A stretch of 64,000 bases of DNA from Holosporaceae bacterium. Lineage in GTDB: Bacteria; Pseudomonadota; Alphaproteobacteria; UBA3830. The stretch lies in NCBI GenBank assembly GCA_031257475.1, contig JAIROP010000026.1, positions 39,482-103,481 of the forward strand, read 5' to 3'. The notes beneath the pieces are model-generated. The model made no database searches. It had not been told where the DNA came from and saw only the letters and a list, made by a program, of their open reading frames with translations. Positions within the stretch are counted from its first letter, which is position 1. The number at the start of each line of letters is the position of its first letter. The translations under genes and the position numbers were made by a program. Below, piece after piece: positions 4,703 to 47,691 of this stretch.

Positions 4703-4733
4703 AAATACGTCAGGAGCAAAGAATAGCGGAAGA

Positions 4734-19434: not shown

Positions 19435-21069
19435 GTGTTTTATGAAAAGTGGCGGTTTACATTGATAGCGTTAGTGTCTGTGACAAGTTGTATTTCTGTT
19501 GACGATGCAAGGACTCCCCAGCAAAAGAATTTAAATACTAAAATTTTTGAAACCATATCCTCCCCGGTGGATGATTTTCTTCCAGATACAGATTACGAGG
19601 AGTCCCAGGAAGAAAAGGAAAAAAAGCCAGTTATTGGGGCAAGTTTTTACAAACCAATATCTCTTTCCATTGCGGATGGCATGAAAATAAGAGAGATCCT
19701 AACCCAAATGGCATCTTTGGCAGGGGTGGATATATTTGTAGTTCAGGATGTGGAGGGGACTATTTCCTTTTCTGCCAATGGACGGCCATTTTTAGATGTA
19801 TTGAAGGATGTTTGCAGCAGCCTTGGTCTAAAATACTCTATCAACGGCAATTCCGTAAGGGTTGAAGTGGACTCTCCAATCTCCCAGATTTACAACGTAC
19901 AGTTTCTGAACATTCAGCGAGATACCCAGAGCAATGTCTCAGTATCGACGGATATTTTTGCCAATCAATCCATTGGGATAAAGGGAAATGTATCTCTTTC
20001 GGCTGGATCTGCCAACAATGGATCCAATAGCTCGGTTTCTGAAGTGGTTAAAAGCGATTTCTGGGCGGAGCTGGAAGCTGCCCTGAAAACAATTGTGGGA
20101 GAGAAGGACGGATTCTACGTTTCTATTCACCGGCAGGGAGGGTTGGTGACAGTTTATGCTCCAAGTACCAAGCAGGATGAAGTACAGAAATATCTGCATC
20201 TATTGAAGCAAACCACAGAGTCTCAGGTACTTATCGAGGCAAAAATTTTGGAGGTGAATTTAAAAAATGAATACAAAAATGGAATAAACTGGAACATTGT
20301 GCGCAGCAGTGGAGTAAAACTGGAGAAAACTTTTTCTGATCCAAATGGATTGTTTTCCTTTGGAATAGCGAGGAATAATCTGAACATTGTAGCTGGTATA
20401 ATAGAAAAGTTTGGAGCGGTTAAAACTCTGTCAAGTCCCAGAATTACGGTTCTTAACAACCAATCGGCTGTGCTGAAGGTCGCTCAGAACGAGGTAGTGT
20501 ATTTCCCAGAATTACAGAGACAATATGCCACTGTGTCCGATAATCGCAGCACAGATGTCCTTTCCACAACGATCCACACCATTCCTGTTGGACTGATAAT
20601 GTCCGTGGTACCATCCGTTGATTGCAAGGATAACACTATTTTGCTGAGTCTGCGACCAACTATTTCCCGCATCGTCAACTACAAAGATGTGCCTTTTTTC
20701 TATCAGACCACATCCACCATCAATTTACCGGCGGGGAGCGATCCTACAAAATATGGCATTCAATACCATAAAATTCCCATTGTTGATGTGAGAGAAATGG
20801 ATTCGGTTCTGAAGCTTATCTCTGGTCAAGTGGTTGTGATGGGGGGATTGATGCAAGAATCATCAAGCAATAATCGGGATGGATTACCGGGCTTTAGGAA
20901 GGCTGATTTTATTCTGGGGAGTCATGAAAAATCCACAAATATTACGGAGTTGGTGATTTTTCTGAAAGCCACAATTTTGCGGAGAAAGAGTAAAACACAT
21001 CACAAAGCAGATCAGAAGATGTATGACACATTTGCCAGTGATCCAAGACCGTTGGAGTTTAAAAAATGA
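19435..21069 (+). CDS. Outer-membrane secretin lipoprotein (MshL/PilQ/GspD family)
   Basis: Lipobox VTSC after a hydrophobic leader. C-terminal secretin domain: KTLSSPRITVLNNQSAVLKV ... IPIVDVREMDSVLKLISGQVVVMGGL ... TELVIFLKATIL. Confidence 0.85.
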   Translation: MFYEKWRFTLIALVSVTSCISVDDARTPQQKNLNTKIFETISSPVDDFLPDTDYEESQEEKEKKPVIGASFYKPISLSIADGMKIREILTQMASLAGVDIFVVQDVEGTISFSANGRPFLDVLKDVCSSLGLKYSINGNSVRVEVDSPISQIYNVQFLNIQRDTQSNVSVSTDIFANQSIGIKGNVSLSAGSANNGSNSSVSEVVKSDFWAELEAALKTIVGEKDGFYVSIHRQGGLVTVYAPSTKQDEVQKYLHLLKQTTESQVLIEAKILEVNLKNEYKNGINWNIVRSSGVKLEKTFSDPNGLFSFGIARNNLNIVAGIIEKFGAVKTLSSPRITVLNNQSAVLKVAQNEVVYFPELQRQYATVSDNRSTDVLSTTIHTIPVGLIMSVVPSVDCKDNTILLSLRPTISRIVNYKDVPFFYQTTSTINLPAGSDPTKYGIQYHKIPIVDVREMDSVLKLISGQVVVMGGLMQESSSNNRDGLPGFRKADFILGSHEKSTNITELVIFLKATILRRKSKTHHKADQKMYDTFASDPRPLEFKK

Positions 21070-21704
21070 TAAAGTTCTCCAAGGTGGACAGAGGATTTTC
21101 CCTCATAGAAGTGGCCATCGCCGTAATGGTGATAGGTATCATTATAAGTTTCACCATGAAAGGTAAGGGATTAATGGAGTCCGCCAGGTTGATGTCCGTA
21201 GTAAAGCAGGTAAATATATTCAAAGATGCAACATACATCTTTTTTGATAAATACGGAACTATGCCGGGAGATTTTCCTCGGGCAAAGGAGATGATCAGCG
21301 AATCACTGGAGAACGGATCTGGAAATGGAAAAATAGAATCAATAAACGATGTCAAGCGCTTTTGGCAACAGTTGAGTGTTTCCAATATATTGAACGTGGA
21401 ATTGGTTGATGGGTTGCCAATTAGCAAAGTTGGCGGATGTTACTGCGTCTCCTCCAATGTTTCCAGTTTGTCAGGTGTTTGGATTATTCTATGCGGAGAT
21501 AGCGATGACAATGCTAGCTTTTCTGGAATCCTATCACCGGGGGATGCATGGACCATCGATAAGGCCCATGACACAGGAGATCCTTTAACTGGAGATATTC
21601 GGGTAATAAAATCTTCCAACGCAACTGGAGATATAATCAGTGGTGGGAAATATAATGTCAAAAACCAAAACAAGGATTGCGTGTTACTGTTCCGCCTGTT
21701 TTAG
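21066..21704 (+). CDS. Type IV pilin / pseudopilin-like protein
   Basis: Prepilin leader MIKFSKVDRG followed by FSLIEVAIAVMVIG (G-1, E+5). Its ATG overlaps the secretin stop. Confidence 0.8.
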   Translation: MIKFSKVDRGFSLIEVAIAVMVIGIIISFTMKGKGLMESARLMSVVKQVNIFKDATYIFFDKYGTMPGDFPRAKEMISESLENGSGNGKIESINDVKRFWQQLSVSNILNVELVDGLPISKVGGCYCVSSNVSSLSGVWIILCGDSDDNASFSGILSPGDAWTIDKAHDTGDPLTGDIRVIKSSNATGDIISGGKYNVKNQNKDCVLLFRLF

Positions 21705-22377
21705 CAGAGGATCAATTCTGCTGGAAGTGGCCATAGCCCTGTCTATCATTGGACTGCTTTCCGGCTTTTTTGTAACAAAGACAATCACTGTTCGAAAGAT
21801 AATGCGAATGCAGGTCACCAAAAACAACATAGAGGCGGTTTCTCTTGCGCTGGTGTCTTTTCTGGTGAACAACAACAGGCTTCCCTATCCATCCCTTGAT
21901 TTTGATGGAAGGGAAGGAAAGATCTCGGAATATAATCTATCCAGTTATGTGGGAGGAGTTCCATTCCATGTGCTGGGAATACCGGCCAAAATTGCCTTGG
22001 ATGGGGAAGGGAAGAGACTGATATATGTCGTGGATCCTTTCTTTACCTTGTTTTTTCAAAAAACATATGACGATGGAAAGTTTGATCGGAATCTATGTGA
22101 TGGCTTTTCAGATCCTAAAATCATAATTGATGGGATAGCGTTAACGACACAAAACCCAGTGGTCTTCGTTATAGTAATAGACAATAAGGACAACCTACGT
22201 GTATCCGAAAAAATCCACATTGTTGTCGAAGAAAATACCTACTGGGTTTCTAGAGATATGCTGTTGATGCAATACCTTAAAAGTGCTCCATGCAGAAGAG
22301 AAATTACACCACAGGCTCTCACTCCGGCTACACCTGCAGCACCAACTGGGTCTGTGAATCCATTCGATGCTTTTTAG
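21655..22377 (+). CDS. Second prepilin-type N-terminal domain protein (minor pilin-like)
   Basis: ...CFSRG then SILLEVAIALSIIGLL (G-1, E+5). The start is uncertain and the gene overlaps the upstream pilin 3' end. Confidence 0.6.
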   Translation: MSKTKTRIACYCSACFSRGSILLEVAIALSIIGLLSGFFVTKTITVRKIMRMQVTKNNIEAVSLALVSFLVNNNRLPYPSLDFDGREGKISEYNLSSYVGGVPFHVLGIPAKIALDGEGKRLIYVVDPFFTLFFQKTYDDGKFDRNLCDGFSDPKIIIDGIALTTQNPVVFVIVIDNKDNLRVSEKIHIVVEENTYWVSRDMLLMQYLKSAPCRREITPQALTPATPAAPTGSVNPFDAF

Positions 22378-24893: not shown

Positions 24894-25550
24894 CTACATG
24901 TTCACTGCCGCCCCAACGTATTTTGCATTCAAATATTCTGTAATGCAATCTTTTATAGTTAGTAAATCATTTTTAAACGAATGGTCACAATTTGAGAGAA
25001 CTCTGTAATCGATTTTTATTCCTTTTTGGTTATTCAGTTTTTCGACCAATTTGTTCACGTTTTCAATTGGGCATACGACATCCTTTTCACCGTTTATTAT
25101 CATTCCAGAAACTGGACATGGAGCTAGAAACGCAAAATCATAGAGATTGGCCGGAGGACATACGGCCACGAATCCTGCTATTTCTGGCCGCCGCATGAGC
25201 AATTGCATTCCAATGAGCGATCCAAAGGAAAAACCGGCAATCCACAATGGACGCTCGCCCTGGTTTATAGATTGGATCCAATCCAAAACAGCGGCAGTGT
25301 CCGTTAATTCACCTTCGCCCTTATCGTAGATTCCCTCAGATTTTCCAACACCTCGAAAATTAAACCTTATGGCCGAAAAACCATTTTCCACAAATGCATT
25401 ATACAGCGCTACTGTGACCCGATTGTTCATGGTGCCACCTTGCAGCGGATTTGGGTGCAGAACTATCACCAGAGGAGCATTGGGCGTTTTGTTATGATGG
25501 TACCTTGCTTCGATCCTTCCTGCATTTCCCATCAAAACTATTGCTGGCAT
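24894..25550 (-). CDS. Alpha/beta hydrolase
   Basis: Nucleophile elbow GFSFGS. Conserved FNFRGVGKSEG region. Start chosen at MPAIVLMG with an AGGAGA RBS. Confidence 0.8.
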   Translation of the reverse strand: MPAIVLMGNAGRIEARYHHNKTPNAPLVIVLHPNPLQGGTMNNRVTVALYNAFVENGFSAIRFNFRGVGKSEGIYDKGEGELTDTAAVLDWIQSINQGERPLWIAGFSFGSLIGMQLLMRRPEIAGFVAVCPPANLYDFAFLAPCPVSGMIINGEKDVVCPIENVNKLVEKLNNQKGIKIDYRVLSNCDHSFKNDLLTIKDCITEYLNAKYVGAAVNM

Positions 25551-25738
25551 TTGGCTTCTCCTGCTTATTCTATATGACACTGTTACAAATAGTATCTTTT
25601 CCGCTGCTTCACAAGTATTTTTCAGGAAAAAAGAGATCGTTGCCTATCGGAGCTTCAAAAAAATTATGACTGAACCCTGTAAATAATTCATTAACCATTA
25701 TTAGTATACTCTAAACAAATGATTATGTGGTTATTGAA

Positions 25739-27031
25739 ATGAAGTATTCCATCCAGTGGTACGAGGGGATGTTGTTATCGCCTCATCATTTTCAGCAGTT
25801 AACCAACAATTTACAGAATTTATTTAGCGTCTTCAGCGGATCCGCCAATGCCTTTGGTTTTGGGGTATTTGATCTTCAAATAGATACATCGGCATTGGTC
25901 TCAGGTGTGGTACGAGTAATGAAAGTACGCGGTATTTTTCAGGACGGTTTACACTTTGACTTCGATGCTATGCATGATCAGCCACTGGAGAAAAATCTCA
26001 TTGATTATTTTATCGCTAACAATGCTGCGGTAAAAGTTTATCTGGCAATTCCAGCCAGAAGGAACGGGGAGAACGAACTTAGCGGAGAAATGGCTAGATA
26101 TTATTCCGCAGAAATCACCAACGTAAGTGATGAAAATACCGGGGAAAACGCCATAAATATGCCAATCCTAAAACCACATCTCAAACTGCTGCTGGAAAAG
26201 GAGGTGGACGCACGCTACGTGAGTTTCCCACTATTTGAAGCTGAAAAAGCCATCGACGGCGGAGTTTCTGGAACCAGTTTTCTTCCCCCATTTTTGATCC
26301 TCGATGAGCATTCCAAAATTTGCGAAATGGTTCGAGATGTGGTCCAAATCATCCGCAATAAAGTTTCCTATTTTTCGGATCGAAAGGATAATTTCTCAAG
26401 AACGGTGACGGATGAAACTATGGCCAGCTTACGGCTGCTAATTCAGTCTGTACTGCCTGTGGAAGCCATGATTCACATCAACGGAATTCAGCCATTTGAA
26501 ATATATAGATGTCTGCTGGAATCTGTGTCCAAGATAATATCCATTAATCCAACTCAGTTGACACCAAGATTATCCATTTACAGCCACAACGACCTGTTTA
26601 AGACATTTGATTCACTGGTACAGCATATCAAGGACGTTTTGGGTAGTCTTAAACAGCAATACGATATAATTCATTTCAGCAAAGAAGGTGCTGTCTTTAA
26701 GCTGCAGATGAAAAAAGAGTGGCTGCAGAAAGAGGAAATTGCCATCGGTGTACAGAAACCGTTCTCCGCATCTGATGACGAGACTCTGGAATGGATCAAG
26801 GGGGTTCAAATAGCTAGCGAATCTATGCTACCGCTGATAAGAGATAAACGCGTTCTAGGGGCTGAACGAAAAATTCTGGAGAGGGGATCCTATATAACGC
26901 AGCCAAATAACATGATCATTCTCTCCGTGAAAACCAAAACGACCTACATAAAACCTGCTGAGAAATTATGCCTACTTAACGCGTCGCAGAACATACTTCC
27001 GGAGGAGGTGGTGCTATATGCCGAGTGCTAA
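25739..27031 (+). CDS. tssK: Type VI secretion system baseplate protein TssK
   Basis: N-terminus MKYSIQWYEGMLLSPHHFQQ is the TssK/VasE hallmark; about 430 aa. It is first in a four-gene coupled operon. Confidence 0.88.
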   Translation: MKYSIQWYEGMLLSPHHFQQLTNNLQNLFSVFSGSANAFGFGVFDLQIDTSALVSGVVRVMKVRGIFQDGLHFDFDAMHDQPLEKNLIDYFIANNAAVKVYLAIPARRNGENELSGEMARYYSAEITNVSDENTGENAINMPILKPHLKLLLEKEVDARYVSFPLFEAEKAIDGGVSGTSFLPPFLILDEHSKICEMVRDVVQIIRNKVSYFSDRKDNFSRTVTDETMASLRLLIQSVLPVEAMIHINGIQPFEIYRCLLESVSKIISINPTQLTPRLSIYSHNDLFKTFDSLVQHIKDVLGSLKQQYDIIHFSKEGAVFKLQMKKEWLQKEEIAIGVQKPFSASDDETLEWIKGVQIASESMLPLIRDKRVLGAERKILERGSYITQPNNMIILSVKTKTTYIKPAEKLCLLNASQNILPEEVVLYAEC

Positions 27032-27752
27032 TGGTCAGAAAATGCCTTCTCCATTGAAGGAAAAATTCGGAGATTTTTGCCTGGAAGTTTTCAACAGCAA
27101 AGACAATATAAAAAACGGCGCAGACGTGGTGGATTGCAGAGCACTACACAAGTTCCTGGGAACAATTCTCAAGTCGTCCATTGACTCTGAACAAAGCTTG
27201 CCATCCGATACAACCGCCAAAGAAGTCGTCTACCTTATGGCTGCTATAGCCGATGAAGTATTTCTGAACATGGAGTGGCCTGGTAAACAATACTGGGAAG
27301 AAAATATGCTGGAACAGCGTTATTTTGGATCTCAAATTGCAGGAGAGAAAGTTTTCGACAGGATAGACATTCTGCTTGGAGAAAATGATCCCACATCTGT
27401 CGGAAAAGCTAAAATTTACCTTAAAATTCTACTACTTGGATTCAAAGGAAAATATCGCAGATTAGAGGATGAACAGACCGGAATTGCGCTGTACAAAAAT
27501 AATCTTCTCGTGTTCATTGAAAAAAACGATAAATCAATATTCATGATAGGACACCGCATTTTCCAGAAAGAATACACCTATACCATACCAACCATACATC
27601 GAAAACTTCTGCCAGACGCCTCCATCGTAAGCTATATGTGTGCATTTTTTGTTTTTATGTTTCTGGTTATCAGTTCAGTGGTCTGGATATTTGAAACCAG
27701 AGACCTAAAAAGGCTACTCTGTGATATATCAGAGATCGCTTTGCGGGAGTGA
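27018..27752 (+). CDS. tssL: Type VI secretion system membrane protein TssL (DotU family, short form)
   Basis: DotU core AAIADEVFLN ... YLKILLLGFKGKYR, then a single C-terminal TM (SYMCAFFVFMFLVISSVVWIF). No periplasmic OmpA/PG-binding extension. Confidence 0.85.
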   Translation: MPSANGQKMPSPLKEKFGDFCLEVFNSKDNIKNGADVVDCRALHKFLGTILKSSIDSEQSLPSDTTAKEVVYLMAAIADEVFLNMEWPGKQYWEENMLEQRYFGSQIAGEKVFDRIDILLGENDPTSVGKAKIYLKILLLGFKGKYRRLEDEQTGIALYKNNLLVFIEKNDKSIFMIGHRIFQKEYTYTIPTIHRKLLPDASIVSYMCAFFVFMFLVISSVVWIFETRDLKRLLCDISEIALRE

Positions 27753-30700
27753 GGATGGATATAAAAGGCCTACTATCCAGCAAGATATCTTTGGTTCCAA
27801 AGGAATTGGTTCCAGCGATCTCCATTGGTGTAATTATTGTCGCATTTCTACTAATTCTGGTTTTTTTCGTCCTGTGCATAGCTTACATAAACATGAAACC
27901 CAAGCCAGTGGTAAAAAGGGACGATAAAAAAGCTCATAAAAAAGACGAAAAGCTTTCGGTGAAGATGCGTCATGAGGACCTTCCGATAATTTCCGGGCGC
28001 ATGGGGGAAATTTTGACCATGATGGGATTTCTCCATGCAGGTCCAATAACCAGGGTTTTCTTTAAGGTTTTGGAGGTCATAAAGAACAGCACCTATGACA
28101 TTCGCTGGAGATACAAACTTCCATGCTTTATGATGGCGGGGCTATCGGGAAGCGGCAAATCCACACTGCTGGATGGTCTGAATTTTGAGCATCTCACCGA
28201 CGATGGATCTGCGCTGGATTCCATGTGGAAATTATTCAAAGATGGAATTATTTTTGAAATGCCTCAGATGGATTCATCGGAGAATATTGATAAATTTTGG
28301 TCGTTTATTAGCGAGTTATTTATTTTTATTCGTCCGCGGCGTCCACTAGACGGAATCTTAGTCACTCTGCCAGCGGACATGTTGCTATTGGAAACATTTG
28401 ACGCCGAAAAACATGCACAGGAAATGTTTGAAAGGGTTTTCAAATTTCAGCACGAAGTGAATTTCCATCTGCCCATGTATTTGATTATCACCAAAATGGA
28501 CTATGTACCTGGATTTTTGGAGTTGGTAAATATTTTGAACGATACCACAAGGCAGCAAATTTTCGGATGGTCATGCCCATATTCCCTCAGAGTTACATTT
28601 TCATCCGACTGGATTCGCGAAATCTTTGAAACTGTGGAAAAAGGTATAGAAAGAGCAACGTTTTATTTTCTGCGGGATAGAAACGAAGATTTCGAACGAG
28701 CGGTTTTATTGGAGTACAATCTCAGGAAAATAAAAACTCCTTTGCGTAAGTACTTGCAGGCAATGTTTCAGACATATACTCCTGAGGATGGATTACTGCT
28801 TCGCGGGGTGTATTTCGTTGGCCAGCAGAACCACCAAATGGCAAATATTTCGGAAGATATTTTGAGTCCCTCGGCGCTGACTCCAGGTGTAAATCTGGCA
28901 TTCAGAGGTTCCTACAATAATGAGATGTGCTTCACGCAGGATTTATTCAGCGAGAAAATCTTCAGAGAACATAACATTGCCTATCCCATCCACCTGAACT
29001 CCATCGATATGAATAAAATAGAACAGCGAAATAAGATCATCATGGCTCTAGGGTCTAGTTTTGTAGCTTTTGGATGGTTCTGGGGCAACGCTAACATAAA
29101 ACAAAAGATTCATGAGTATTATTCAGTAATGGCCTCGGTGAAGACCACAATGGTAAAAATAAAATATTTGGAAACCCATTTAAAAGGAGAGGAAGATCAG
29201 GCTTTCATCAATAAGCAAACCACCGCTGTACTGAAAAATATGCCGCTGGTAAAGAGATTTGATTTTATATCTGTATTCGTACCCCAATCCTGGTTTGCAA
29301 ATTTGCACAAAGAAATGCTCGAAACCATAGGATTAGTTTTTGATTCTGTAATAATTCGCGCCATGTACATAGATATAAACCTGAATGCTAAGCATATTTT
29401 GCAAAATACCCTGGATGATTCTCGATCAATGGAAAAGAAAAATAATATTTTCGACGTTAATTCATTTCCAAGTTTCAAAAAATTGCATGAATTCGTGAAA
29501 CAAATTAATAGGATAGAAAAAATCAGTGCCGAATACGATTCTATACGGCATCTGGAGGATAGGAAAAGTGTGGCTGATCTAACCATGGTGCTTTTTAAGG
29601 AAAATTTCGATATAGCCGAAGATGTAAAAGATCGCGTTCCTAGCAAAAGATTGATTCCACCCAGGTTTGATATCACCCTATTCAAAACAAGGATAGAATC
29701 AAATCTAAAATTGATACTTACAGCGTTTTTAAATGATGTTTTAGATGTTACAGTGGAAAGAATATTGCAAAATTTATCCAGAGACATAGATGGACTTATA
29801 GAAATATCCCAAAATTCCATGCTACCCTATTCCAGTGAAAATCTTGCAAAAGTGTACAATAAAACTTTGCTGATCTCGGATATTTGGAAAAGTAAAAATT
29901 TTTTCTGGATAGCTTTGGATCACTTCGCTCCCTGTCAGGAATATATCGAGATAATGAAAAAGCTCGGAGCTTCCAGCATTGTAAGTAAAGATTACCTGAA
30001 AGAACTGATAAAGCTAAGTGAACTTGAGTTCCATAAATTTAGAGCAAAACTATTCAATTATTCCACAGATTTGACCGGAAAACTGCTTACGCCAGACTTC
30101 AAAAATGTGTCCACTGGATTCATCAATTTTCAAAAGGAAATCCAAACACTATTGGATCAACCTTTTATAAGTATAGTCCCCAAGGATCGATTAAACACCG
30201 TCATACTTGAAGATAAAATGCTGATTTGGGAACTCCAGAAACTCAAAGAACTATCCAATCTGATTGACAAATACTATGCATTCATAGAAAACATGCCGCC
30301 AGACATACGCCCCAGGTACTTCGAAATGTACAAAATTATTGCTCGCAAATGCTTTTATCCAATGATTGAAGCTACCCTTGGCAGTGCACAGGTCTTCGAG
30401 GATATTCCGTTGGGACATTCCAACGATTTGTTGGCGGAAGCTTACAAGCGTCAGGCAAATAACATCAGAGGTGCTTCCGTAGCTCTAACGAAAGTAGCCA
30501 AAGTGCTTGAAGAAATGCAGGAAGAGGATAATACCAAAACCTCTGATTTTGTACCAATGATCGTGGATCACTATTCCACTCTGCTAGAGAGAATAGACGC
30601 CTTATTTAGTCAATCCACCCCCTATGCAGCTGGCCATGCTGTGTTTGATAGCTGGGACGGCAACCAAACTCCGAGGTATCTTGATATAAGTGGTCCAGAC

Positions 30701-31936
30701 GATCTTAGGGAATATTTTGTATCGCAATTTGGTCAAATCCGTTTTCTTGCAAAAGATCTTGCCGCACCCATCGTTGATCTTCTATCTATGCCATACTTTG
30801 CGGAAAAGATCAGAGACCACAGGCTTCTTGCCAAATGGAGGGAAATAATCAGCAGCGTAGATGATTATGAAAAGAAAAAACCAGGGAATTCCATAGCAGC
30901 CCTTGAAGGCTTTTTGTCCAACAATTTGTCCAAGATTTCGCTGGGATCATTCGACGAAAAGGGAGAGATAAAAAACCTTTCCGAAACAGGTGGAGACTAT
31001 TTCCTCTCAAGACGTTCCGAAGTGGCGAAGTCACTATTGTCGAGAGCAGAAGTGGTGCGCTACGAAAAAGCAGCGACTGCCTACGAACGTCTCAGGCAAT
31101 TCTTTAACGATAATCTCGCACATAAATTTCCATTTGGGAAGTCGGACCAGGATGCTTCCCTGAAAAATATGGAAAATTTCATGAATTTGTATGAAAAAAA
31201 TGCCAAAGACATGAAAGAGGTTCTGAGTCGCAATCAAGATATAAAAAATATAGGTAAGCAGGCATTGGAATTTTTGGATAGCATGAATGATAAGGTGATT
31301 CCATTTTTGAAAATTTGGATTAATCACTCAAAAGCGCCCGACGCCAAGAGCGCATTGATCGCTTTCAACGTCAAAATGCGACCTTCACCAGAACTGGAAG
31401 CAATGACCTCATCGGTCGTGGACAGGGAAATGTTTATGGACAATGCTCCGGTGGAGGACAATGAAAATTGTATATTTTTTAACGGTAATAAAGTGAATGT
31501 AATCTTCAGCTATGTTCCCTCATCGGATGAAAGACCGAATGCTAGAGAAGCTAACGGCAATCTAAAAATTGAAGAATCAAAGGCCACGTTCTCCTACGAA
31601 GGTCGCTGGGCCATATTTAGAATGATCGAAGAACACAAAACGAACAGAGAAACCGAGTTGCCCAACGGTGTATTATTACAATTCAACGTTCCAATCTACG
31701 ACACTTCCAGAAGAAATGTTGCCATGACATCCAAAATGGTTTTGAAAATTACTCCAATGGCCAAAGATGAGGATAAGGTTACGCCAATAGCATGGCCAAT
31801 ATTCCCTGAACTATGGCCAAGTCTCCATGGAACCGAAAAGGAAAAGTCGGCGGCGCATGAGGCGCCACATAAATTGGATGTGAACGTATCCTTCGATGAG
31901 CTACCAGCAAAAGCTGAGGGAATCACACCACAATGA
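27749..31936 (+). CDS. tssM: Type VI secretion system membrane protein TssM (IcmF family), 1395 aa
   Basis: N-terminal TM, Walker A GLSGSGKST (28139-28162), and a second TM near residue 440. A large periplasmic part ends with the IcmF_C-like region (GRWAIFRMIEEH). GTGA overlap with tssL. Confidence 0.88.
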   Translation: MRMDIKGLLSSKISLVPKELVPAISIGVIIVAFLLILVFFVLCIAYINMKPKPVVKRDDKKAHKKDEKLSVKMRHEDLPIISGRMGEILTMMGFLHAGPITRVFFKVLEVIKNSTYDIRWRYKLPCFMMAGLSGSGKSTLLDGLNFEHLTDDGSALDSMWKLFKDGIIFEMPQMDSSENIDKFWSFISELFIFIRPRRPLDGILVTLPADMLLLETFDAEKHAQEMFERVFKFQHEVNFHLPMYLIITKMDYVPGFLELVNILNDTTRQQIFGWSCPYSLRVTFSSDWIREIFETVEKGIERATFYFLRDRNEDFERAVLLEYNLRKIKTPLRKYLQAMFQTYTPEDGLLLRGVYFVGQQNHQMANISEDILSPSALTPGVNLAFRGSYNNEMCFTQDLFSEKIFREHNIAYPIHLNSIDMNKIEQRNKIIMALGSSFVAFGWFWGNANIKQKIHEYYSVMASVKTTMVKIKYLETHLKGEEDQAFINKQTTAVLKNMPLVKRFDFISVFVPQSWFANLHKEMLETIGLVFDSVIIRAMYIDINLNAKHILQNTLDDSRSMEKKNNIFDVNSFPSFKKLHEFVKQINRIEKISAEYDSIRHLEDRKSVADLTMVLFKENFDIAEDVKDRVPSKRLIPPRFDITLFKTRIESNLKLILTAFLNDVLDVTVERILQNLSRDIDGLIEISQNSMLPYSSENLAKVYNKTLLISDIWKSKNFFWIALDHFAPCQEYIEIMKKLGASSIVSKDYLKELIKLSELEFHKFRAKLFNYSTDLTGKLLTPDFKNVSTGFINFQKEIQTLLDQPFISIVPKDRLNTVILEDKMLIWELQKLKELSNLIDKYYAFIENMPPDIRPRYFEMYKIIARKCFYPMIEATLGSAQVFEDIPLGHSNDLLAEAYKRQANNIRGASVALTKVAKVLEEMQEEDNTKTSDFVPMIVDHYSTLLERIDALFSQSTPYAAGHAVFDSWDGNQTPRYLDISGPDDLREYFVSQFGQIRFLAKDLAAPIVDLLSMPYFAEKIRDHRLLAKWREIISSVDDYEKKKPGNSIAALEGFLSNNLSKISLGSFDEKGEIKNLSETGGDYFLSRRSEVAKSLLSRAEVVRYEKAATAYERLRQFFNDNLAHKFPFGKSDQDASLKNMENFMNLYEKNAKDMKEVLSRNQDIKNIGKQALEFLDSMNDKVIPFLKIWINHSKAPDAKSALIAFNVKMRPSPELEAMTSSVVDREMFMDNAPVEDNENCIFFNGNKVNVIFSYVPSSDERPNAREANGNLKIEESKATFSYEGRWAIFRMIEEHKTNRETELPNGVLLQFNVPIYDTSRRNVAMTSKMVLKITPMAKDEDKVTPIAWPIFPELWPSLHGTEKEKSAAHEAPHKLDVNVSFDELPAKAEGITPQ

Positions 31937-33009
31937 CTCACGAGAAAGAAGCTCCAAGAGATATCAATGAGCTATTGGCCCCCATCTCTGAGGATAGGAG
32001 ATGCGGTGAGTATCTAAAATATGATAATGTCTACGATAGGATAAAAGAACTGCGCCGAGAGGATGATCTCGAACTATCCAAGGGAATTTGGCAGATAGAA
32101 CTCAAAAAAGCCGAGTGGCCTGAAGTGGATCGCGTCTGCTCAGATCTAATAAAAACGAGAACCAAAGATCTGCAGATTGCAATGTGGCTCACGGAATCGT
32201 GGGCTGTTATGGAAAGATTTTTCGGATTTAACCGCGGCATTAATCTTTTACTATCTCTATGTGAGAAATTCTGGTATGACATTTATCCGTTGATTGATGA
32301 GAAAAACAAGAGCTTTACCGCACGGCTTTCTCCTTTTTATTTTCTAGCGGAAAAAATGCATGATAGGCTTGTGCTGATTCCCATAGTGGAACTGGCGGAT
32401 AGCACCGTGGAGAGCCGTAGTCTGTCCGATTGGATGACTGCACGCTACAATCTGCGTACTAAAAATATGGGCGGATTATCCCTGGAACAGTTGAAAAAAA
32501 GCGTTATGGAAGTTCCGCTGGAGTTCTTCCAATCTCTTAAAACAGATATTGAACAAACAATGGAAAGTTTGAAAAACTTGGACAGTTTTCTCACTGCGAA
32601 ATGTTCAACTGATTCTCCAAGTTTCGGAAAGCTTTTTGAATGTTTGGAGGATATAATCAATATAACAAACAATAATATGAAGGAAACTAAAGTTGTAAAA
32701 GCTCTTCCTTCTCCTTCTGTTCAAATAACACAGGGCGATGATTCGGAATCTACGGTTGAGATTTTGGAATTAGAGCCCATGCAGTCTTTCAAGCAAAACA
32801 GACCAAACATCGAGCAGGCATACGCCACAATGGCGGAAATAGCTATTTTTCTAGAGAAAGAACAACCTCAGAGTCCGGCAGCTACTCTTATAAAAATAGC
32901 AGGTGCCATTGGTAAGAAGAATTTTCAGGAATTAATGGAAATTAATATGAAAAGCGGAACGTCCGTCATTGGTACAATTTCTGAACTATATCGTGTGCTC
33001 TGTACATAG
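31933..33009 (+). CDS. tssA: Type VI secretion system protein TssA (ImpA_N domain)
   Basis: ImpA N-terminal signature PISEDRRCGEYLKYDNVYDRI ... EWPEVDRVCSDLI ... KDLQIAMWLTESW. ATGA overlap with tssM. Confidence 0.82.
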   Translation: MTHEKEAPRDINELLAPISEDRRCGEYLKYDNVYDRIKELRREDDLELSKGIWQIELKKAEWPEVDRVCSDLIKTRTKDLQIAMWLTESWAVMERFFGFNRGINLLLSLCEKFWYDIYPLIDEKNKSFTARLSPFYFLAEKMHDRLVLIPIVELADSTVESRSLSDWMTARYNLRTKNMGGLSLEQLKKSVMEVPLEFFQSLKTDIEQTMESLKNLDSFLTAKCSTDSPSFGKLFECLEDIINITNNNMKETKVVKALPSPSVQITQGDDSESTVEILELEPMQSFKQNRPNIEQAYATMAEIAIFLEKEQPQSPAATLIKIAGAIGKKNFQELMEINMKSGTSVIGTISELYRVLCT

Positions 33010-33115: not shown

Positions 33116-33188
33116 GTCCCCATCGTCTAGAGGCCTAGGACATCGCCCTTTCACGGCGACAACACGAGTTCGAATCTCGTTGGGGACA
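33116..33188 (+). tRNA. tRNA-Glu (anticodon UUC)
   Basis: Acceptor GTCCCCA/TGGGGAC, anticodon loop CTTTCAC, T-loop TTCGAAT. Close resemblance to canonical bacterial tRNA-Glu. CCA is not encoded. Confidence 0.92.
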
Positions 33189-33246
33189 CCGTTTGAAATT
33201 TCAGGTAAAAACGACAGGAAACTCTGCTCCTCTAAAAACGAAAATC

Positions 33247-34335
33247 TCAAAAATCGAACATTTTTCCGCTAGTGATTTGCTGAAATTTGCTCTGGGAATA
33301 GGTTGCGAAGAAGTGCTTAACCTGCTCCAGCATTCGTTTTTCTTCCTGGTTTCCATAACCGCCTTTGTGAGCGATCCAGTGGCCGAATTCGTCTATTGCG
33401 GCTGTTAGAGCCGCTCCCACAGGCCATCCGCTGATGCCATATCGTGTGGCAAGTTCGCCTGCGAATCCGAGAGTAAAGAAGAACTTAAACACGCGGTCGT
33501 CCTGTCCGTAGGCTTCGCTTGGCAGGTGTTTTTCTTTCGTTTCTCGTAGAGCATCTTTGAAATATTTAGGCAGTAAATCGAGTTCTTTTATGGCGTTTTC
33601 GACGAATGCGGTTCTCGGTGTGCCGTAATATTCCCGGGTAGCTTCGTCCAAATGCTGTGCAAAAGCCGCATAGCTTGGGAATCCGTTAAGTTTTTCGAGC
33701 AGTCCAGTGCTTTCTGGGATCGCCTTGGCGAATACTAGACTTCTTTCGAAACCGTCGTCCTTCCGGTAATTTTTGCGTCGCTCTGGTGCTTGGATCCTCA
33801 CGTACGCAAAGTACTCCGCGGTCCTGCGCTCCGTGGGCTCCTAAAAATAACCATGTTCGATAATAATTTTTCGTACCTTGGAGCATCTCAAACTTGAGAA
33901 TCAAAAATTGGCAAAAACTAATAAACGAACACGGTTAATTCCTCGGAACTACTCGGTTTCGAAAGAAGTCTAATGAAGGCCGAAGTTCTCTCTTCTGCAT
34001 GGTTTCAGCAGAATGCTTGCGAATCCGGCGCTTACGGCCAATATCAGCCTGGAATTTCCGATACATATCCTGCCTACGTTCTCAATCCAGTCTTGAAGGT
34101 TGCCTTTCGTATCGACTGCAGACGGCTCTAAAATCCGGCTGAAAAATCAGCAATTCTTTGGGCTGTTCGCCTATGACGCCGTTTTCAGTTATGTAACAAT
34201 TTTCGTGCCATCCACTGACCTTGATAATTTCCACATGTTGCCTTCGGATTTGAGGCGTTGATGTATTCGCTGAGCTTGTTTTTTGCTCTTTTCCTAGTGG
34301 AAATGAAGAGCCCTTTGCCTGGTTGAAATTTGAAA
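33247..34335 (-). pseudogene. Degraded DUF927-type phage/ICE primase-helicase gene
   Basis: Three colinear pieces in different frames. First: VSGWHENCYITENGVIGEQPKELLIFQ. Second: KGNLQDWIENVGRICIGNSRLILAVSAGFASILL (the region that normally precedes the P-loop). Third, the C-terminal piece: RVFKFFFTLGFAGELATRYGISGWPVGAA ... HKGGYGNQEEKRMLEQVKHFF. The P-loop segment is missing, the 88-bp repeat sits in the break, and the 5' end is cut off at tRNA-Arg. The stretch looks more GC-rich than its surroundings by eye. Confidence 0.7.
33849..33936 (+). mobile_element. 88-bp MITE-like repeat, copy A
   Basis: AACCATGTTCGATAATAA...TAATAAACGAACACGGTT with about 11-13 bp imperfect terminal inverted repeats. 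About 95 percent identical by eye to the copies at 63356-63443 and 63608-63695. Confidence 0.8.
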
Positions 34336-34412
34336 TGGTGTGCCCGGAAGGATTCGAACCCTCAGCCTTCAGATCCGTAGTCTGACGCTCTATCCAATTG
34401 GGCTACGGGCAC
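34336..34412 (-). tRNA. tRNA-Arg (anticodon ACG)
   Basis: Reverse complement folds as acceptor GTGCCCG/CGGGCAC, anticodon loop CTACGGA, T-loop TTCGAAT, encoded CCA. Confidence 0.9.
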
Positions 34413-34417
34413 ATTGA

Positions 34418-34489
34418 TAGGTGATGACAGGTTTGAACTGCCGACCCCCTCGGTGTAAACGAGATGCTCTACCGCTGAGCTAATCACCC
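34418..34489 (-). tRNA. tRNA-Val (anticodon UAC)
   Basis: Reverse complement GGGTGATTAGCTCAGCGGTAGAGC..., anticodon loop TTTACAC, T-loop TTCAAAC. CCA is not encoded. Confidence 0.88.
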
Positions 34490-34496
34490 CACGCTG

Positions 34497-34525
34497 AGGA
34501 TACACAAATTTCCTAAAGGATGCAA
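34497..34525 (-). promoter_or_regulatory. Sigma70-like promoter of tRNA-Val(UAC): TTGCAT-N17-TATCCT
   Basis: On the minus strand, TTGCAT (34520-34525), a 17-nt spacer and TATCCT (34497-34502) lie 7 nt upstream of the tRNA 5' end. The same arrangement is duplicated before the second tRNA-Val. Confidence 0.55.
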
Positions 34526-34650
34526 CTACCGCCGCCCAAATGGTCACGGCCCCCTCAGGAAAATTTCTATAAACAAAATACTGAAATACCAATAGCAATT
34601 TTTTATTCCAAATATTTATTCAGCCCATGCTGGGTTGCTAAACATAACAG

Positions 34651-34789
34651 AAATTGCGGGACTGCCCTATAAGTATAGCAAAATGCGGAAAATCCACTGA
34701 TTTTACAATGAGTTATGTCTCTACGGTTTTGTTGAATATTCAAGGGTTTTATCTAATGATTTCTATTTTTATAGGGCAATCCCGAAATT
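34651..34789. repeat. Imperfect 20-bp inverted repeat pair flanking about 98 bp
   Basis: AAATTGCGGGACTGCCCTATA (34651-34671) versus the reverse complement of TATAGGGCAATCCCGAAATT (34770-34789). 18 of 20 positions match by eye. Confidence 0.5.
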
Positions 34790-34841
34790 GCTTACATTCT
34801 CGGGCATATAACCGTTTGTTTAACAACAACACGAAAAATGG

Positions 34842-34913
34842 TAGGTGATGACAGGTTTGAACTGTCGCCCCCCTCGATGTGACCGAGATGCTCTACCACT
34901 GAGCTAATCACCC
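34842..34913 (-). tRNA. tRNA-Val (anticodon CAC)
   Basis: Reverse complement GGGTGATTAGCTCAGTGGTAGAGC..., anticodon loop GTCACAT, perfect T-stem GACAG/CTGTC. It is a paralog of the tRNA at 34418-34489. Confidence 0.85.
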
Positions 34914-35763: not shown

Positions 35764-36807
35764 ATGAGCAAAAGACTAAAGGCAATTTTAGATTTCATTA
35801 GTGTTCAGAAGATAGCTACAACTTCTGATGTTCACCGCTATATCGTCGAAAAATTTCAGGAAAAAATTGCGCGAATAACGATAATCAGAGATATCGATTT
35901 TCTGATACACAGCGGGTTTATCAAAAAACAAGGTCAAGCACGCAATGTAAAATATTGTCCAATTATCACTAATCCTTTGTTGGAATATTTTAATGTCGAT
36001 GATTATTTTAGAAATGACTGTGACGATCGTGTCATAAAAAACAAGAATTTTCGTTTCGATGTTTTTGATCATCTTGCTGGCTTATTTACGGATGGCGAAC
36101 TAGACGAAATATGTGTCATTAACGAAAAATTCAGAAACAATCTGAAAAAATTCTCGCCAACGATTGTAAAAAAAGAATTTGAGCGGCTGATCATTGAATT
36201 CAGCTGGAAATCCTCTCACATCGAAGGGAATACCTACTCCTTGTTAGACACGGAACGATTAATAAAAGAAAACATCAAAGCCGGTAATCATAGCAGAGAA
36301 GAATCAATTATGATTTTAAATCACAAATGTGCGTTGGATTATATTTTTCAGAATGCTTCCAATTATAAGCGTATTACTCTTGCCAAAATAGAGGAGTTGC
36401 ATGAAATTGTAATTGATAATCTCGGAATTCACGCCGGATTAAGATCTTCGGCGGTTGGCGTTGTGGGAACAAATTATAAACCGCTCGACAATATACATCA
36501 AATTAGAGACGCCATGCACGAATTGATAAAAACCATAAATAGGACAACGAATCCGTTGGAAAAAGCTTTCACCGTCGTTTTGATGATTTCATATATTCAA
36601 CCCTTTGAAGATGGTAACAAAAGAACGTCCAGAATATTAGCCAATGCCATTTTATTGGCCAATGATTATTGCCCATTATCATACAGAAGCATAGATGAGG
36701 TGGAGTATAAAAAGGCTATCATTCTATTTTACGAGCAAAACAGCGTATCATACTTAAAAAAATTATTCATTGAACAATTTAAACAGGCTGTAGACAAATA
36801 TTTTTGA
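35764..36807 (+). CDS. Fic-fold protein with N-terminal winged-helix domain and non-canonical active-site motif
   Basis: Fic core reads QPFEDGNKRTSR (36598-36633) where the canon is HxFx(D/E)GNGRxxR. An inhibitory-helix-like SSHIEG lies at 36211-36228. The N-terminus ILDFISVQKIATTSDVHRYI resembles a wHTH. Confidence 0.8.
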   Translation: MSKRLKAILDFISVQKIATTSDVHRYIVEKFQEKIARITIIRDIDFLIHSGFIKKQGQARNVKYCPIITNPLLEYFNVDDYFRNDCDDRVIKNKNFRFDVFDHLAGLFTDGELDEICVINEKFRNNLKKFSPTIVKKEFERLIIEFSWKSSHIEGNTYSLLDTERLIKENIKAGNHSREESIMILNHKCALDYIFQNASNYKRITLAKIEELHEIVIDNLGIHAGLRSSAVGVVGTNYKPLDNIHQIRDAMHELIKTINRTTNPLEKAFTVVLMISYIQPFEDGNKRTSRILANAILLANDYCPLSYRSIDEVEYKKAIILFYEQNSVSYLKKLFIEQFKQAVDKYF

Positions 36808-46528: not shown

Positions 46529-47005
46529 CTAAAATCTCTTTACGCTTGCCTTCTTTATATTGCTGTACAATACTCCGATTTCGACGAGACCAGTATCGCA
46601 TTCTTCTCTCAAATAGACAACTATGTTCTGTAAATTTTGTTCCACCCTGAGCAGTTTCCCATGGAATTTACGTCTGCCGCTGATTAGACCAATCGTCTCC
46701 ACTTTTGCGTATCTGCCGCAAAAACGCTCGAAATCACTGATTTTTTTCAGGGGCCGATTTTCGCCAGGCGAGCTTACCTCTAGCGTATAGGATCCCTCAA
46801 TAAAATCTTCAACATCTAATATTACGGAAATCAAATGATTTGCATTGGTGCAATCCTCCAGAGTGACAGGACCACTGTCCAGTCGGTCAATATCCACTGT
46901 TACCTGCGGATTTTTCCCTCCAACGATTCTCGTCCGCACAACCTCATAACCCCGATATTCCAGAGATGGACCAATTTTCGCCTCAATTTTCTCCGTCAAT
47001 TTCAA
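46529..47005 (-). CDS. rimP: Ribosome maturation factor RimP
   Basis: Position upstream of nusA. LEVSSPGENRPL motif. Confidence 0.88.
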   Translation of the reverse strand: MKLTEKIEAKIGPSLEYRGYEVVRTRIVGGKNPQVTVDIDRLDSGPVTLEDCTNANHLISVILDVEDFIEGSYTLEVSSPGENRPLKKISDFERFCGRYAKVETIGLISGRRKFHGKLLRVEQNLQNIVVYLREECDTGLVEIGVLYSNIKKASVKRF

Positions 47006-47390
47006 TACATTTCCCCTTTTTTGTCTTGACTGGGGTGGACTGTTGACTAATCCTCTCCGTTCTCTTTACAATACATTGTTTACACAAAGGACATTCAATC
47101 GTCGGATCTCTCACATTTCTGATTGGTGCAATAAATGAGTCATGCATTTTGTGGAAGAACAATGTGTCTCCCAGTCTCCGCGCGGACTACCAAAAAATAA
47201 ATAATAACAACATGGAGACAACTGGGACGAGTGTCGAGGGCAGGAACTGCCCAACGACTCCCTGTTCACTCCTTATCAACTCCGGTACTCCCCATTAATT
47301 CCATTAATTGCATAGACCGACCACCGGATTCCTGTAAGCCATACTCTGGTCCGCTACGGTCTGTATGCTCAGAGGTCGGGAAGTCATTGC

Positions 47391-47465
47391 TTAGATAATC
47401 CCCATCCAACATAACACCAAACCTGCGACCACAGACCTTGCAATATTACCAATCCCACATAACAT
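47391..47465 (-). CDS. Candidate 24-codon hydrophobic sORF in the rimP upstream region
   Basis: Read by hand: AAAGGAGA, then 7 nt, then ATG. Peptide MLCGIGNIARSVVAGLVLCWMGII, stop TAA. No homology argument is available. Confidence 0.2.
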   Translation of the reverse strand: MLCGIGNIARSVVAGLVLCWMGII

Positions 47466-47691
47466 AACGAATCTCCTTTCTAATGAGGCGATTATACATA
47501 AAATGAAAAGTCTGGCAAGCGGTCTCCATCTTTTGCTGGTTGATGCGGAAAATTTCTGATTGCACTTGAAAGAATACTAGTCCATTCTATAATGACAGCT
47601 GGGGGAAGTGTCTTCCCAGACTCCGGCAATGAATTAGAGGGGTGGTTGCGGAACTGGAGGCTCTGTCCTGGGGCGGTGATGGAGGATTGAA

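What the first reader, a model, noticed from the sequence alone, without database searches (positions are those of the whole stretch)
25739..33009. Stand-alone tssK-tssL-tssM-tssA type VI secretion module in a streamlined alphaproteobacterial backbone
Four consecutive plus-strand ORFs carry family hallmarks. TssK has MKYSIQWYEGMLLSPHHFQQ. DotU/TssL has …LLGFKGKYR plus one C-terminal TM. IcmF/TssM has Walker A GLSGSGKST, TM segments and an IcmF-type C-terminus. ImpA_N/TssA has PISEDRRCGEYLKYDNVYD … KDLQIAMWL. Start/stop overlaps (tssK/tssL by 14 nt, GTGA at 27749-27752, ATGA at 31933-31936) indicate one operon. No tssJ precedes tssK. TssL ends right after its TM, so it has no peptidoglycan-binding extension. 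None of tssB/C, hcp, vgrG, tssE/F/G, clpV or PAAR occurs anywhere in the 64 kb. The flanks are housekeeping genes on one side (tyrS, hydrolase) and a tRNA/mobile-element decay zone on the other. A membrane-complex and adaptor module physically detached from the contractile parts, in what looks like a reduced host-associated genome, could be a split-locus T6SS, a relic, or a repurposed envelope complex.
Basis: partly seen in the sequence, partly recalled or inferred. Interest (0 to 1): 0.72.

Follow-up and report, generated by a model that had tools for sequence, protein, structure and literature searches.

The report
Known split type VI secretion locus
The four genes are real, intact type VI secretion genes (tssK-tssL-tssM-tssA) in a Holosporales symbiont genome, but this stand-alone block is a published, conserved piece of a secretion system whose other parts sit elsewhere in the genome, so the finding is correct but ordinary.

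Summary
Four overlapping plus-strand ORFs at 25739-33009 encode TssK, TssL/DotU, TssM/IcmF and TssA. No other T6SS gene occurs in the 64 kb window. The contig is a MAG labelled Holosporaceae bacterium (TssK = MDR0555934.1).

- Midha et al. [quoted passage not shown]
- More than 100 relatives carry the module. Their flanking genes differ.
- Synonymous sites are saturated while pN is 0.13-0.29, so the genes are under purifying selection and are not a relic.
- A sheath gene (MDR0556220.1) lies 283 accession numbers from the window's tssA, so it is almost certainly in the same MAG.
- Relatives carry the sheath gene and tssE-F-G close to the module.
- Free-living outgroups hold one contiguous cluster, J?-K-L-M-A-B-C-hcp-E-F-G. 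The window therefore holds the front half of a broken-up ancestral cluster.

Two side observations lie outside the window. The clade's sheath is a single fused TssB-TssC protein. Its reportedly missing Hcp is probably a very divergent Hcp. Interest is low and the arrangement is already known.

The parts
25581..25738 (+). 158-nt intergenic region upstream of tssK, the presumed promoter region of the operon
   Evidence: This is the gap between the divergent hydrolase gene (24894-25580, minus strand) and the tssK ATG. The simple sigma-70 consensus scan found no match here, so the promoter is inferred, not shown.
25739..27031 (+). tssK, the baseplate subunit that links the membrane complex to the baseplate (430 aa)
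   Evidence: TIGR03353 scores 206.9 bits against a cutoff of 100, and PF05936 gives 1.4e-42. It matches the solved TssK structure 5y0e at 9.7e-19. It is 100% identical to NCBI MDR0555934.1, named 'TssK [Holosporaceae bacterium]'.
27018..27752 (+). tssL (DotU family), the inner-membrane anchor, short form without a peptidoglycan-binding domain (244 aa)
   Evidence: PF09850 scores 74.3 bits against a gathering threshold of 27. It matches the solved TssL structures 4v3i and 3u66 at about 4e-8. A single C-terminal hydrophobic segment lies at aa 197-228. The gene overlaps tssK by 14 nt.
27606..27701 (+). C-terminal transmembrane segment of TssL (aa 197-228)
   Evidence: Kyte-Doolittle 19-residue mean up to 2.59.
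27749..31936 (+). tssM (IcmF family), the envelope-spanning membrane-complex subunit (1395 aa); long and divergent
   Evidence: PF14331 IcmF-related_N scores 120.7 bits. TIGR03348 scores 146 bits, below its cutoff of 388. IcmF_C is weak at E=0.002. The protein aligns with outgroup TssM over aa 104-1316 at E=2e-57. No solved structure is reached by sequence or by profile. The start codon overlaps the tssL stop (GTGA).
27812..27889 (+). N-terminal transmembrane segment of TssM (aa 22-47)
   Evidence: Kyte-Doolittle mean 3.52. A second, weak hydrophobic stretch at aa 430-448 (mean 1.29) lies where the canonical post-NTPase TM would be.
28139..28165 (+). Walker A / P-loop of TssM (GLSGSGKST, aa 131-139)
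   Evidence: The motif was found at aa 131. S135, G136, K137 and S138 are invariant in the three-sequence family alignment.
31933..33009 (+). tssA, the ImpA_N-family tail-assembly and priming protein (358 aa)
   Evidence: TIGR03363 scores 215.3 bits against a cutoff of 160.85, and PF06812 scores 105.8 bits. It matches the solved TssA structure 6hs5 at 1e-27. It is NCBI MDR0555937.1. The start codon overlaps the tssM stop (ATGA).

Best explanation
[quoted passage not shown] The clade appears to live in gut protists.

Inferred working of the locus. The four genes form one translationally coupled operon. TssL and TssM build the membrane complex, anchored in the inner membrane. TssK docks on the cytoplasmic faces of TssL and TssM and recruits the TssE-F-G/VgrG baseplate. 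TssA primes and coordinates polymerisation of the tube and sheath. The contractile parts are encoded elsewhere: a fused TssB-TssC sheath protein, a divergent Hcp-like protein, TssE-F-G and VgrG.

Origin. The arrangement arose when an ancestral contiguous cluster (J?-K-L-M-A-B-C-hcp-E-F-G) broke up during genome rearrangement in the symbiont lineage.

What is shown: gene identities, operon structure, conservation and purifying selection, co-occurrence with sheath and baseplate genes, and the ancestral contiguous order.

What is inferred: assembly, firing, operation without a TssJ lipoprotein, and the target (host compartments or rival bacteria).
For: 1. All four families are identified by curated models and three of them by solved structures.
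2. The start and stop codons overlap by 14, 4 and 4 nt.
3. The window's TssK and TssA are NCBI Holosporaceae MAG proteins. More than 100 relatives have TssK at 54-78% identity, with further tiers at 40-45% and 34-37%.
4. Published knowledge. T6SS core genes in Holosporales families lie at four or more loci, including [tssK-tssL-tssM-tssA], and are transcribed in Ca. Bodocaedibacter (PMC8163844). The T6SS is conserved in almost all Holosporales genomes (PMC11909080; bioRxiv 10.1101/719211).
5. Of 18 related loci with enough flank to judge, 14 hold the intact four-gene block. Their housekeeping flanks differ, for example L002, L007 and L025.
6. Against four relatives, pS is 0.72-0.87 (saturated) while pN is 0.13-0.29 for every gene, and all ORFs are intact.
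7. The fused sheath protein P0253 is MDR0556220.1, 283 accession numbers after the window's TssA (MDR0555937.1), so it is very probably from the same MAG.
8. In L025 (TssK 73% identical) the sheath gene lies 2.5 kb from tssK. In L011, tssE-F-G lie near tssM-tssA.
9. TssK and the sheath protein list the same longest contig in two other genomes: 177,915 nt and 169,022 nt.
10. Outgroup contigs carry the contiguous order J?-K-L-M-A-B-C-hcp-E-F-G.
Against: - Apart from the sheath gene, no other T6SS gene could be shown in this same MAG. That link itself rests on accession adjacency, because the contig could not be fetched.
- VgrG, ClpV and PAAR were never searched for outside the window.
- No TssJ homologue was found in the window or in its close relatives.
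- TssM misses its NCBIfam equivalog cutoff, and its C-terminal domain is only weakly recognisable.
- There is no expression or functional evidence for this organism.
Confidence: 0.88

Rival explanations
1. Relic: a decaying leftover of a T6SS cluster whose contractile parts were lost during genome reduction. It would be non-functional and on its way to deletion.
For: No other T6SS gene lies within 64 kb. The literature reports Hcp and TssJ as missing in this group. TssM is divergent.
Against: All four ORFs are intact here and in dozens of relatives that have diverged to synonymous saturation, with pN of only 0.13-0.29. The sheath gene is very probably in the same MAG. Sheath and baseplate genes are present in close relatives. 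The literature reports the system as retained even in the smallest genomes of the order.
Confidence: 0.03
2. Repurposed envelope complex: TssL and TssM, with TssK and TssA, act independently of any contractile tail. One model is a stabiliser of another secretion system, as IcmF and DotU are for the Legionella Dot/Icm type IVB system.
For: The module is physically detached. IcmF/DotU homologues serve a T4BSS in Legionella (established knowledge, not tested here). A secretin with pseudopilin-like genes lies 4 kb upstream.
Against: TssK and TssA are baseplate and tail-assembly proteins with no known role outside a contractile T6SS. The module co-occurs with sheath and baseplate genes in the same genomes. 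It descends from a contiguous canonical cluster. No Dot/Icm or VirB genes are in the window.
Confidence: 0.05
3. Recently acquired partial island: an incomplete T6SS fragment inserted by horizontal transfer next to a tRNA cluster.
For: Four tRNA genes, an orphan ORF, a Fic-domain ORF and one weak InsA-like small ORF lie downstream or nearby.
Against: The GC content of the module (0.38-0.43) matches its flanks (0.40-0.43). The module is present throughout the clade down to about 35% TssK identity, in varied genomic contexts, which indicates vertical inheritance.
Confidence: 0.03

Closest known systems
Split T6SS of Holosporales symbionts (Ca. Bodocaedibacter vickermanii, Paracaedibacteraceae, Caedimonadaceae; Midha et al. 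2021, PMC8163844)
   Same: It has the same stand-alone [tssK-tssL-tssM-tssA] locus in the same gene order, within a system dispersed over at least four loci in a reduced protist-symbiont genome. The other loci appear in relatives of the window: a sheath gene plus an ORF in the hcp position, and tssE-F-G.
   Different: In the window's clade, tssB and tssC are fused into one gene. The paper lists them as separate genes. A tssJ-like gene was reported for Bodocaedibacter, but none was found here. The [ywqK-vgrG] locus was not examined.
'Modified' T6SS of Holosporaceae diplonemid endosymbionts (Cytomitobacter, Nesciobacter; George et al., bioRxiv 10.1101/719211)
   Same: Most core T6SS genes are retained in a highly reduced genome, with no recognisable TssJ and no recognisable Hcp. 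Standard models likewise fail to find either here.
   Different: My custom Hcp profile and the gene position suggest that Hcp is divergent rather than absent.
Canonical contiguous T6SS-i clusters, for example the outgroup contigs L005, L006, L045-L053 and L075
   Same: The four genes are homologous and in the same order K-L-M-A, and TssM is similarly long at 1319-1434 aa.
   Different: In these clusters the genes are preceded by a small lipoprotein gene in the tssJ position and followed directly by tssB-tssC-hcp-tssE-F-G. In the window both neighbours are replaced by housekeeping genes and tRNAs.
Legionella/Coxiella IcmF-DotU, accessory proteins of the Dot/Icm type IVB system
   Same: They belong to the same protein families as TssM and TssL (PF14331, PF09850).
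   Different: Those systems have no TssK or TssA partners and depend on Dot/Icm genes. Here TssK and TssA are present in the operon, and no Dot/Icm genes occur in the window.

Membership tests
TssK (T6SS baseplate subunit) | Scores above the curated equivalog model TIGR03353 and above Pfam PF05936 | tested here: met
   206.9 bits against a cutoff of 100; PF05936 scores 146.5 bits against 23.4. It matches the solved TssK 5y0e at 9.7e-19.
TssL / DotU | Cytoplasmic DotU domain followed by a single C-terminal TM anchor | tested here: met
   PF09850 scores 74.3 bits against a gathering threshold of 27. The hydrophobic segment is at aa 197-228 of 244. The NCBIfam models all fall below their cutoffs (TIGR03349: 78.3 against 89.95), so it is a divergent member.
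TssM / IcmF | IcmF-related N-terminal (NTPase-associated) domain with a Walker A motif | tested here: met
   PF14331 scores 120.7 bits against 25. GLSGSGKST lies at aa 131, and its core residues are invariant in relatives.
TssM / IcmF | Full-length equivalog score (TIGR03348) and the C-terminal IcmF_C domain that binds TssJ in canonical systems | tested here: inconclusive
   TIGR03348 scores 146 bits against a cutoff of 388. IcmF_C scores 18.6 bits, below the gathering threshold of 26.7. Seven of 17 family members hit IcmF_C, with a best E of 1.8e-5. The EAEC TssM structures 4y7l and 4y7o are reached only at E of about 0.3. The AlphaFold single-sequence model was unusable at pLDDT 36.7.
TssM / IcmF | Three transmembrane helices: an N-terminal hairpin plus one after the cytoplasmic domain | tested here: inconclusive
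   There is one strong hydrophobic segment at aa 22-47 and one weak one at aa 430-448. Only a hydropathy scan was run, with no dedicated topology predictor.
TssA (ImpA_N family) | Scores above TIGR03363 and contains the ImpA_N domain | tested here: met
   215.3 bits against a cutoff of 160.85; PF06812 scores 105.8 bits. It matches the solved TssA 6hs5 at 1e-27.
Holosporales split-locus T6SS (Midha et al. 2021) | Stand-alone [tssK-tssL-tssM-tssA] locus flanked by non-T6SS genes, in a Holosporales genome | tested here: met
   The window flanks are tyrS and a hydrolase on one side and tRNA-Glu on the other. NCBI labels the source Holosporaceae bacterium. The same block, with other flanks, appears in 14 of 18 informative related loci.
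Holosporales split-locus T6SS (Midha et al. 2021) | Sheath genes elsewhere in the same genome | tested here: met
   The fused TssBC protein MDR0556220.1 lies 283 accession numbers after the window's TssA, MDR0555937.1. This is an inference from accession adjacency. It was shown directly on one contig in the relative L025.
Holosporales split-locus T6SS (Midha et al. 2021) | tssE/F/G and ywqK-vgrG loci elsewhere in the same genome | not testable with these tools
   tssE-F-G were found in the relative L011. The window's full MAG could not be retrieved. vgrG was never searched for.
Complete canonical T6SS-i (13 core components) | Outer-membrane lipoprotein TssJ | tested here: not met
   No ORF precedes tssK, since the gap is only 158 nt. 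The outgroup's lipoprotein from the tssJ position gives no tblastn hit in the window or in L001-L026. A homologue exists in the more distant lineage L028. Absence from the rest of the genome was not tested.
Complete canonical T6SS-i (13 core components) | Hcp tube protein | tested here: inconclusive
   There is none in the window. In relatives, a 170-200-aa ORF family occupies the hcp slot. A custom Hcp HMM links it to Hcp: E=2e-10 to the bridging member L032 and 1e-4 to 1e-3 to Holosporaceae members. Pfam gives only E=0.03, while NCBIfam, a PDB profile search and hhalign were all negative.
Dot/Icm type IVB accessory pair (IcmF-DotU) | Association with Dot/Icm genes and no TssK or TssA partners | tested here: not met
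   TssK and TssA are in the same operon, and no Dot/Icm family was found among the window ORFs.

The most novel reading that the evidence does not exclude
The window's operon may encode the membrane and adaptor half of a structurally remodelled T6SS variant specific to this symbiont clade. Its features would be a membrane complex that works without any TssJ lipoprotein or peptidoglycan anchor, a single-chain TssB-TssC sheath, and a tube protein so divergent that standard models miss it, all kept under purifying selection while scattered over the chromosome. It is not established that they define a mechanistically distinct and undescribed T6SS subtype.
Probability: 0.3. Interest if true: 0.5.

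Novelty: already known. Interest (0 to 1): 0.15.

Why it matters
For the window itself it matters little. It adds one more unstudied MAG to a published pattern: Holosporales symbionts keep a dispersed T6SS, which is the leading candidate for how they manipulate their protist hosts.

The comparative by-products are of more use. The contiguous-to-dispersed series shows how an ancestral cluster was taken apart. The clade-wide TssB-TssC fusion is a natural single-chain sheath. The probable divergent Hcp would correct the literature statement that these systems lack a tube. All three lie outside the window and need structural or experimental confirmation.

Tried and rejected
- ORFs of 158, 502 and 815 aa at 42.5-47 kb had sizes that fit TssB, TssC and ClpV. 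They are RimP, NusA and IF-2.
- Exact-product look-ups for the NCBI TssK (P0001), the JGI 434-aa TssK and the same-MAG sheath protein P0253 all returned 'not on record'. I could therefore neither walk along the 127-kb contig nor fetch the 12.6-kb sheath contig.
- The one metagenome scan, run with P0253, did not contain the window's sample; its best hit was 74%. The same-genome claim therefore rests on accession adjacency.
- Tests of the hcp-slot family as Hcp mostly failed. Pfam and NCBIfam were negative apart from one hit at E=0.03. A PDB profile search found nothing. hhalign against a two-sequence Hcp alignment was negative. Only a custom 52-sequence Hcp HMM and a BLASTP chain made the link.
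- The ORFs in the tssJ position are not recognised as TssJ by Pfam or NCBIfam.
- TssM gave nothing significant against solved structures, whether as a single sequence, a three-sequence profile or a 17-sequence C-terminal profile.
- The AlphaFold single-sequence model of the TssM C-terminus had pLDDT 36.7, so no fold search was run.
- The promoter and terminator consensus scan was uninformative, with fewer hits than in shuffled sequence.
- No T6SS subtype (i1-i5) was assigned, because no reference set was available.
Full report

Yes. Four consecutive plus-strand ORFs occupy 25739-33009.
- TssK scores 206.9 bits on TIGR03353, against a cutoff of 100.
- TssL/DotU scores 74.3 bits on PF09850, against a gathering threshold of 27.
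- TssM/IcmF scores 120.7 bits on PF14331 IcmF-related_N.
- TssA scores 215.3 bits on TIGR03363, against a cutoff of 160.85.

TssK, TssL and TssA also match solved T6SS structures: 5y0e, 4v3i/3u66 and 6hs5. The junctions are a 14-nt overlap, GTGA and ATGA.

TssL has one C-terminal hydrophobic segment (aa 197-228 of 244) and no peptidoglycan-binding extension. TssM carries the Walker A motif at aa 131, one strong N-terminal TM segment and one weak hydrophobic stretch at aa 430-448.

IcmF_C falls below its threshold here (18.6 bits against 26.7). Seven of 17 relatives hit it. Solved TssM structures are not reached significantly.

**2. Is the module really alone in the window?**

Yes. Pfam or NCBIfam scans of essentially every ORF of 120 aa or more returned only housekeeping genes. 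These include lon, ruvX, pnp, lolCD-like genes, dnaE, prfB, a secretin, tyrS, rimP-nusA-infB-rbfA, dnaN, recF, pepA, fabD and an RND pump, among others. A batch scan of 31 small intergenic ORFs and two overlapping ORFs at 4601-5642 found truB, rpsO, rpmB and one weak InsA-like hit, but no PAAR, Hcp or TssE. tblastn with TssB, TssC, Hcp, TssE, TssF and TssG from an outgroup cluster gave nothing below E=0.1.

**3. What organism is it?**

The TssK and TssA sequences are 100% identical to NCBI MAG proteins MDR0555934.1 and MDR0555937.1, labelled 'Holosporaceae bacterium', on a 127,479-nt contig.

Related genomes found with a TssM profile are MAGs whose names point to termite and ruminant guts. A 2025 review notes an uncharacterised Holosporales clade from animal guts, in particular termites (PMC11909080).

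**4. What is already known?**

- Midha et al. [quoted passage not shown] RNA-seq in that study showed transcription.
- George et al. (bioRxiv 10.1101/719211) report that Holosporaceae endosymbionts retain most T6SS genes but lack recognisable Hcp and TssJ.
- The 2025 review calls the T6SS conserved in almost all genomes of the order, and the likeliest tool for host interaction.

**5. Independent evidence gathered here**

(a) Conservation. More than 100 TssK clusters have 54-78% identity. Further tiers lie at 40-45% and 34-37%.

(b) Synteny. The four-gene block is intact in 14 of 18 related loci with enough flanking sequence to judge, and its housekeeping neighbours differ between them. There are exceptions. 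L010 and L011 have tssM-tssA without tssK-tssL. L026 and L004/L023 have tssK-L-M without tssA. Fragmentation has therefore continued in some lineages.

(c) Selection. Against four relatives, pS is 0.72-0.87 (saturated) while pN is 0.13-0.29 for all four genes. That is incompatible with a relic.

(d) The rest of the machine.
- In L025 (TssK 73% identical to the window's), a sheath gene lies 2.5 kb from tssK.
- In L011, tssE-F-G lie near tssM-tssA.
- A search with the L025 sheath protein returned more than 100 relatives. One of them is P0253 = MDR0556220.1, only 283 accession numbers after the window's TssA. It is therefore very probably encoded by the same MAG.
- TssK and sheath proteins also share identical longest-contig lengths in two other genomes.
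- L028 (sheath) and L002 (tssKLMA) come from one assembly.

(e) Origin.
- The nearest outgroups (TssA about 30-32% identical) and many environmental contigs carry one contiguous cluster: a small lipoprotein gene, then tssK-L-M-A-B-C-hcp-E-F-G.
- Intermediate contigs keep a fused tssBC followed by hcp-E-F-G, but without K-L-M-A.
- The Holosporaceae type has the pieces fully dispersed.
- The window thus holds the 5' half of a dismantled ancestral cluster, cut just after tssA and just before tssK.

**6. Mechanism**

The following is inferred from established T6SS biology.
- TssL and TssM form the envelope complex.
- TssK bridges that complex to the TssEFG-VgrG baseplate.
- TssA primes tube and sheath polymerisation.
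- The overlapping stops and starts suggest translational coupling of the four products.
- The contractile parts are supplied in trans from other loci.

Two points remain unresolved. The first is how the complex reaches the outer membrane without a detectable TssJ. The second is whether TssM's divergent C-terminus compensates for that absence.

**7. Rival readings**

- Relic: rejected by points (c) and (d) above.
- Repurposed envelope complex: unlikely. TssK and TssA only make sense with a tail. The module co-occurs with tail genes. No Dot/Icm genes are present.
- Recent island: unlikely. The GC content matches the flanks, and the module is spread throughout the clade.

**8. Side observations outside the window**

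- The clade's sheath is a single fused TssB-TssC protein carrying VipA, VipB and VipB_2. It is 640-760 aa long and appears in more than 100 clusters. I found no report of this fusion in the searchable literature. That search was limited.
- The ORF that follows the sheath gene belongs to a 170-200-aa family. In L032 a member of that family lies exactly between tssBC and tssE, the hcp slot. A 52-sequence Hcp HMM hits the L032 member at E=2e-10 and the Holosporaceae members at 1e-4 to 1e-3. Curated models miss the family. So the 'missing' Hcp is probably a divergent Hcp.
- The outgroup's lipoprotein from the tssJ position has a homologue beside the sheath gene in L028 (hhalign 91%, E=9e-7). No homologue was detected near the window's clade.

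**9. Verdict**

The arrangement is already published, and the genes are already annotated in GenBank. Interest is low.

Noticed in passing
L025:3419-5485 (- strand); also L027:10001-12145, L028:10001-12067, and proteins P0241-P0345 and P0347-P0356: tssB and tssC are fused in frame into one 640-760-aa protein carrying VipA, VipB and VipB_2. This holds throughout the clade (more than 100 clusters at 57-100% identity), and one copy (P0253 = MDR0556220.1) is probably from the window's own MAG. Among 80 environmental sheath loci, the fusion appears only in a low- to mid-GC subset, and tssB and tssC are separate genes elsewhere. I found no report of it in the papers searched.
   Followed up: partly
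L025:2743-3348 (-), L027:12244-12840 and 12994-13575, L029:4259-4807, L030:1891-2460, L011:3591-4109 (-), L032:11961-12512: A family of 170-200-aa ORFs sits directly after the sheath gene, and in L032 between tssBC and tssE, which is the hcp slot. A custom HMM of 52 true Hcp sequences hits the L032 member at E=2e-10 and the Holosporaceae members at 1e-4 to 1e-3. Pfam gives only E=0.03, and NCBIfam, PDB and hhalign tests were negative. This is probably a very divergent Hcp, which would contradict reports that these systems lack a tube protein.
   Followed up: partly
L028:14291-14983; L005:3001-3498; L006:3427-3894: In outgroups, a small ORF precedes tssK. The L005 copy has a lipobox (LLAAC). 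It has a homologue placed beside the fused sheath gene in L028 (hhalign 91%, E=9e-7; tblastn 5e-5). Neither Pfam nor NCBIfam calls any of these TssJ. No homologue was found in the window or in L001-L026.
   Followed up: partly
L010, L011, L026, L004/L023: The module has fragmented further in some lineages. L010 and L011 have tssM-tssA with no tssK-tssL upstream; in L011 the upstream genes are ruvAB, tol genes and tssE-F-G on the opposite strand. L026 and L004/L023 have tssK-L-M with no tssA downstream.
   Followed up: partly
window 35764-36807 (+): A 347-aa Fic-domain ORF (PF02661, E=6e-14) lies 2.7 kb downstream of tssA, beyond the tRNA cluster. Its motif reads QPFEDGNKRTSR, with Gln in place of the catalytic His, so it may not be an active AMPylase.
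   Followed up: partly
window 33116-34913 and 33247-33801 (-): A cluster of four tRNA genes (Glu-TTC, Arg-ACG, Val-TAC, Val-CAC) lies directly downstream of tssA, together with an orphan 184-aa ORF that has no family hit. One small ORF somewhere in the window gives a weak InsA (IS1) zinc-ribbon hit (E=2e-4), and I did not determine which one.
   Followed up: no
window 19435-22377 (+): A secretin gene (Secretin plus Secretin_N_2 domains) is followed by two small ORFs. One has a prepilin N-methylation motif and the other a weak ComGE-like hit. This fits the reduced T2SS/type IV pilus remnant reported for Holosporaceae endosymbionts.
   Followed up: no
window ~47005-47692: Cumulative GC skew reaches its minimum around 46-48 kb. 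Gene orientation diverges there, with rimP-nusA-infB on the minus strand and dnaN-recF on the plus strand. This could be the replication origin region.
   Followed up: no
L002:1-5406 and L028:12131-14242: Large ORFs lie next to T6SS loci in a distant relative and could be effectors. One is a protein of at least 1875 aa with no Pfam hit, 4.6 kb upstream of tssK. The other is a 703-aa protein with TPR repeats and an adenylate/guanylate-cyclase domain, directly after the fused sheath gene.
   Followed up: no
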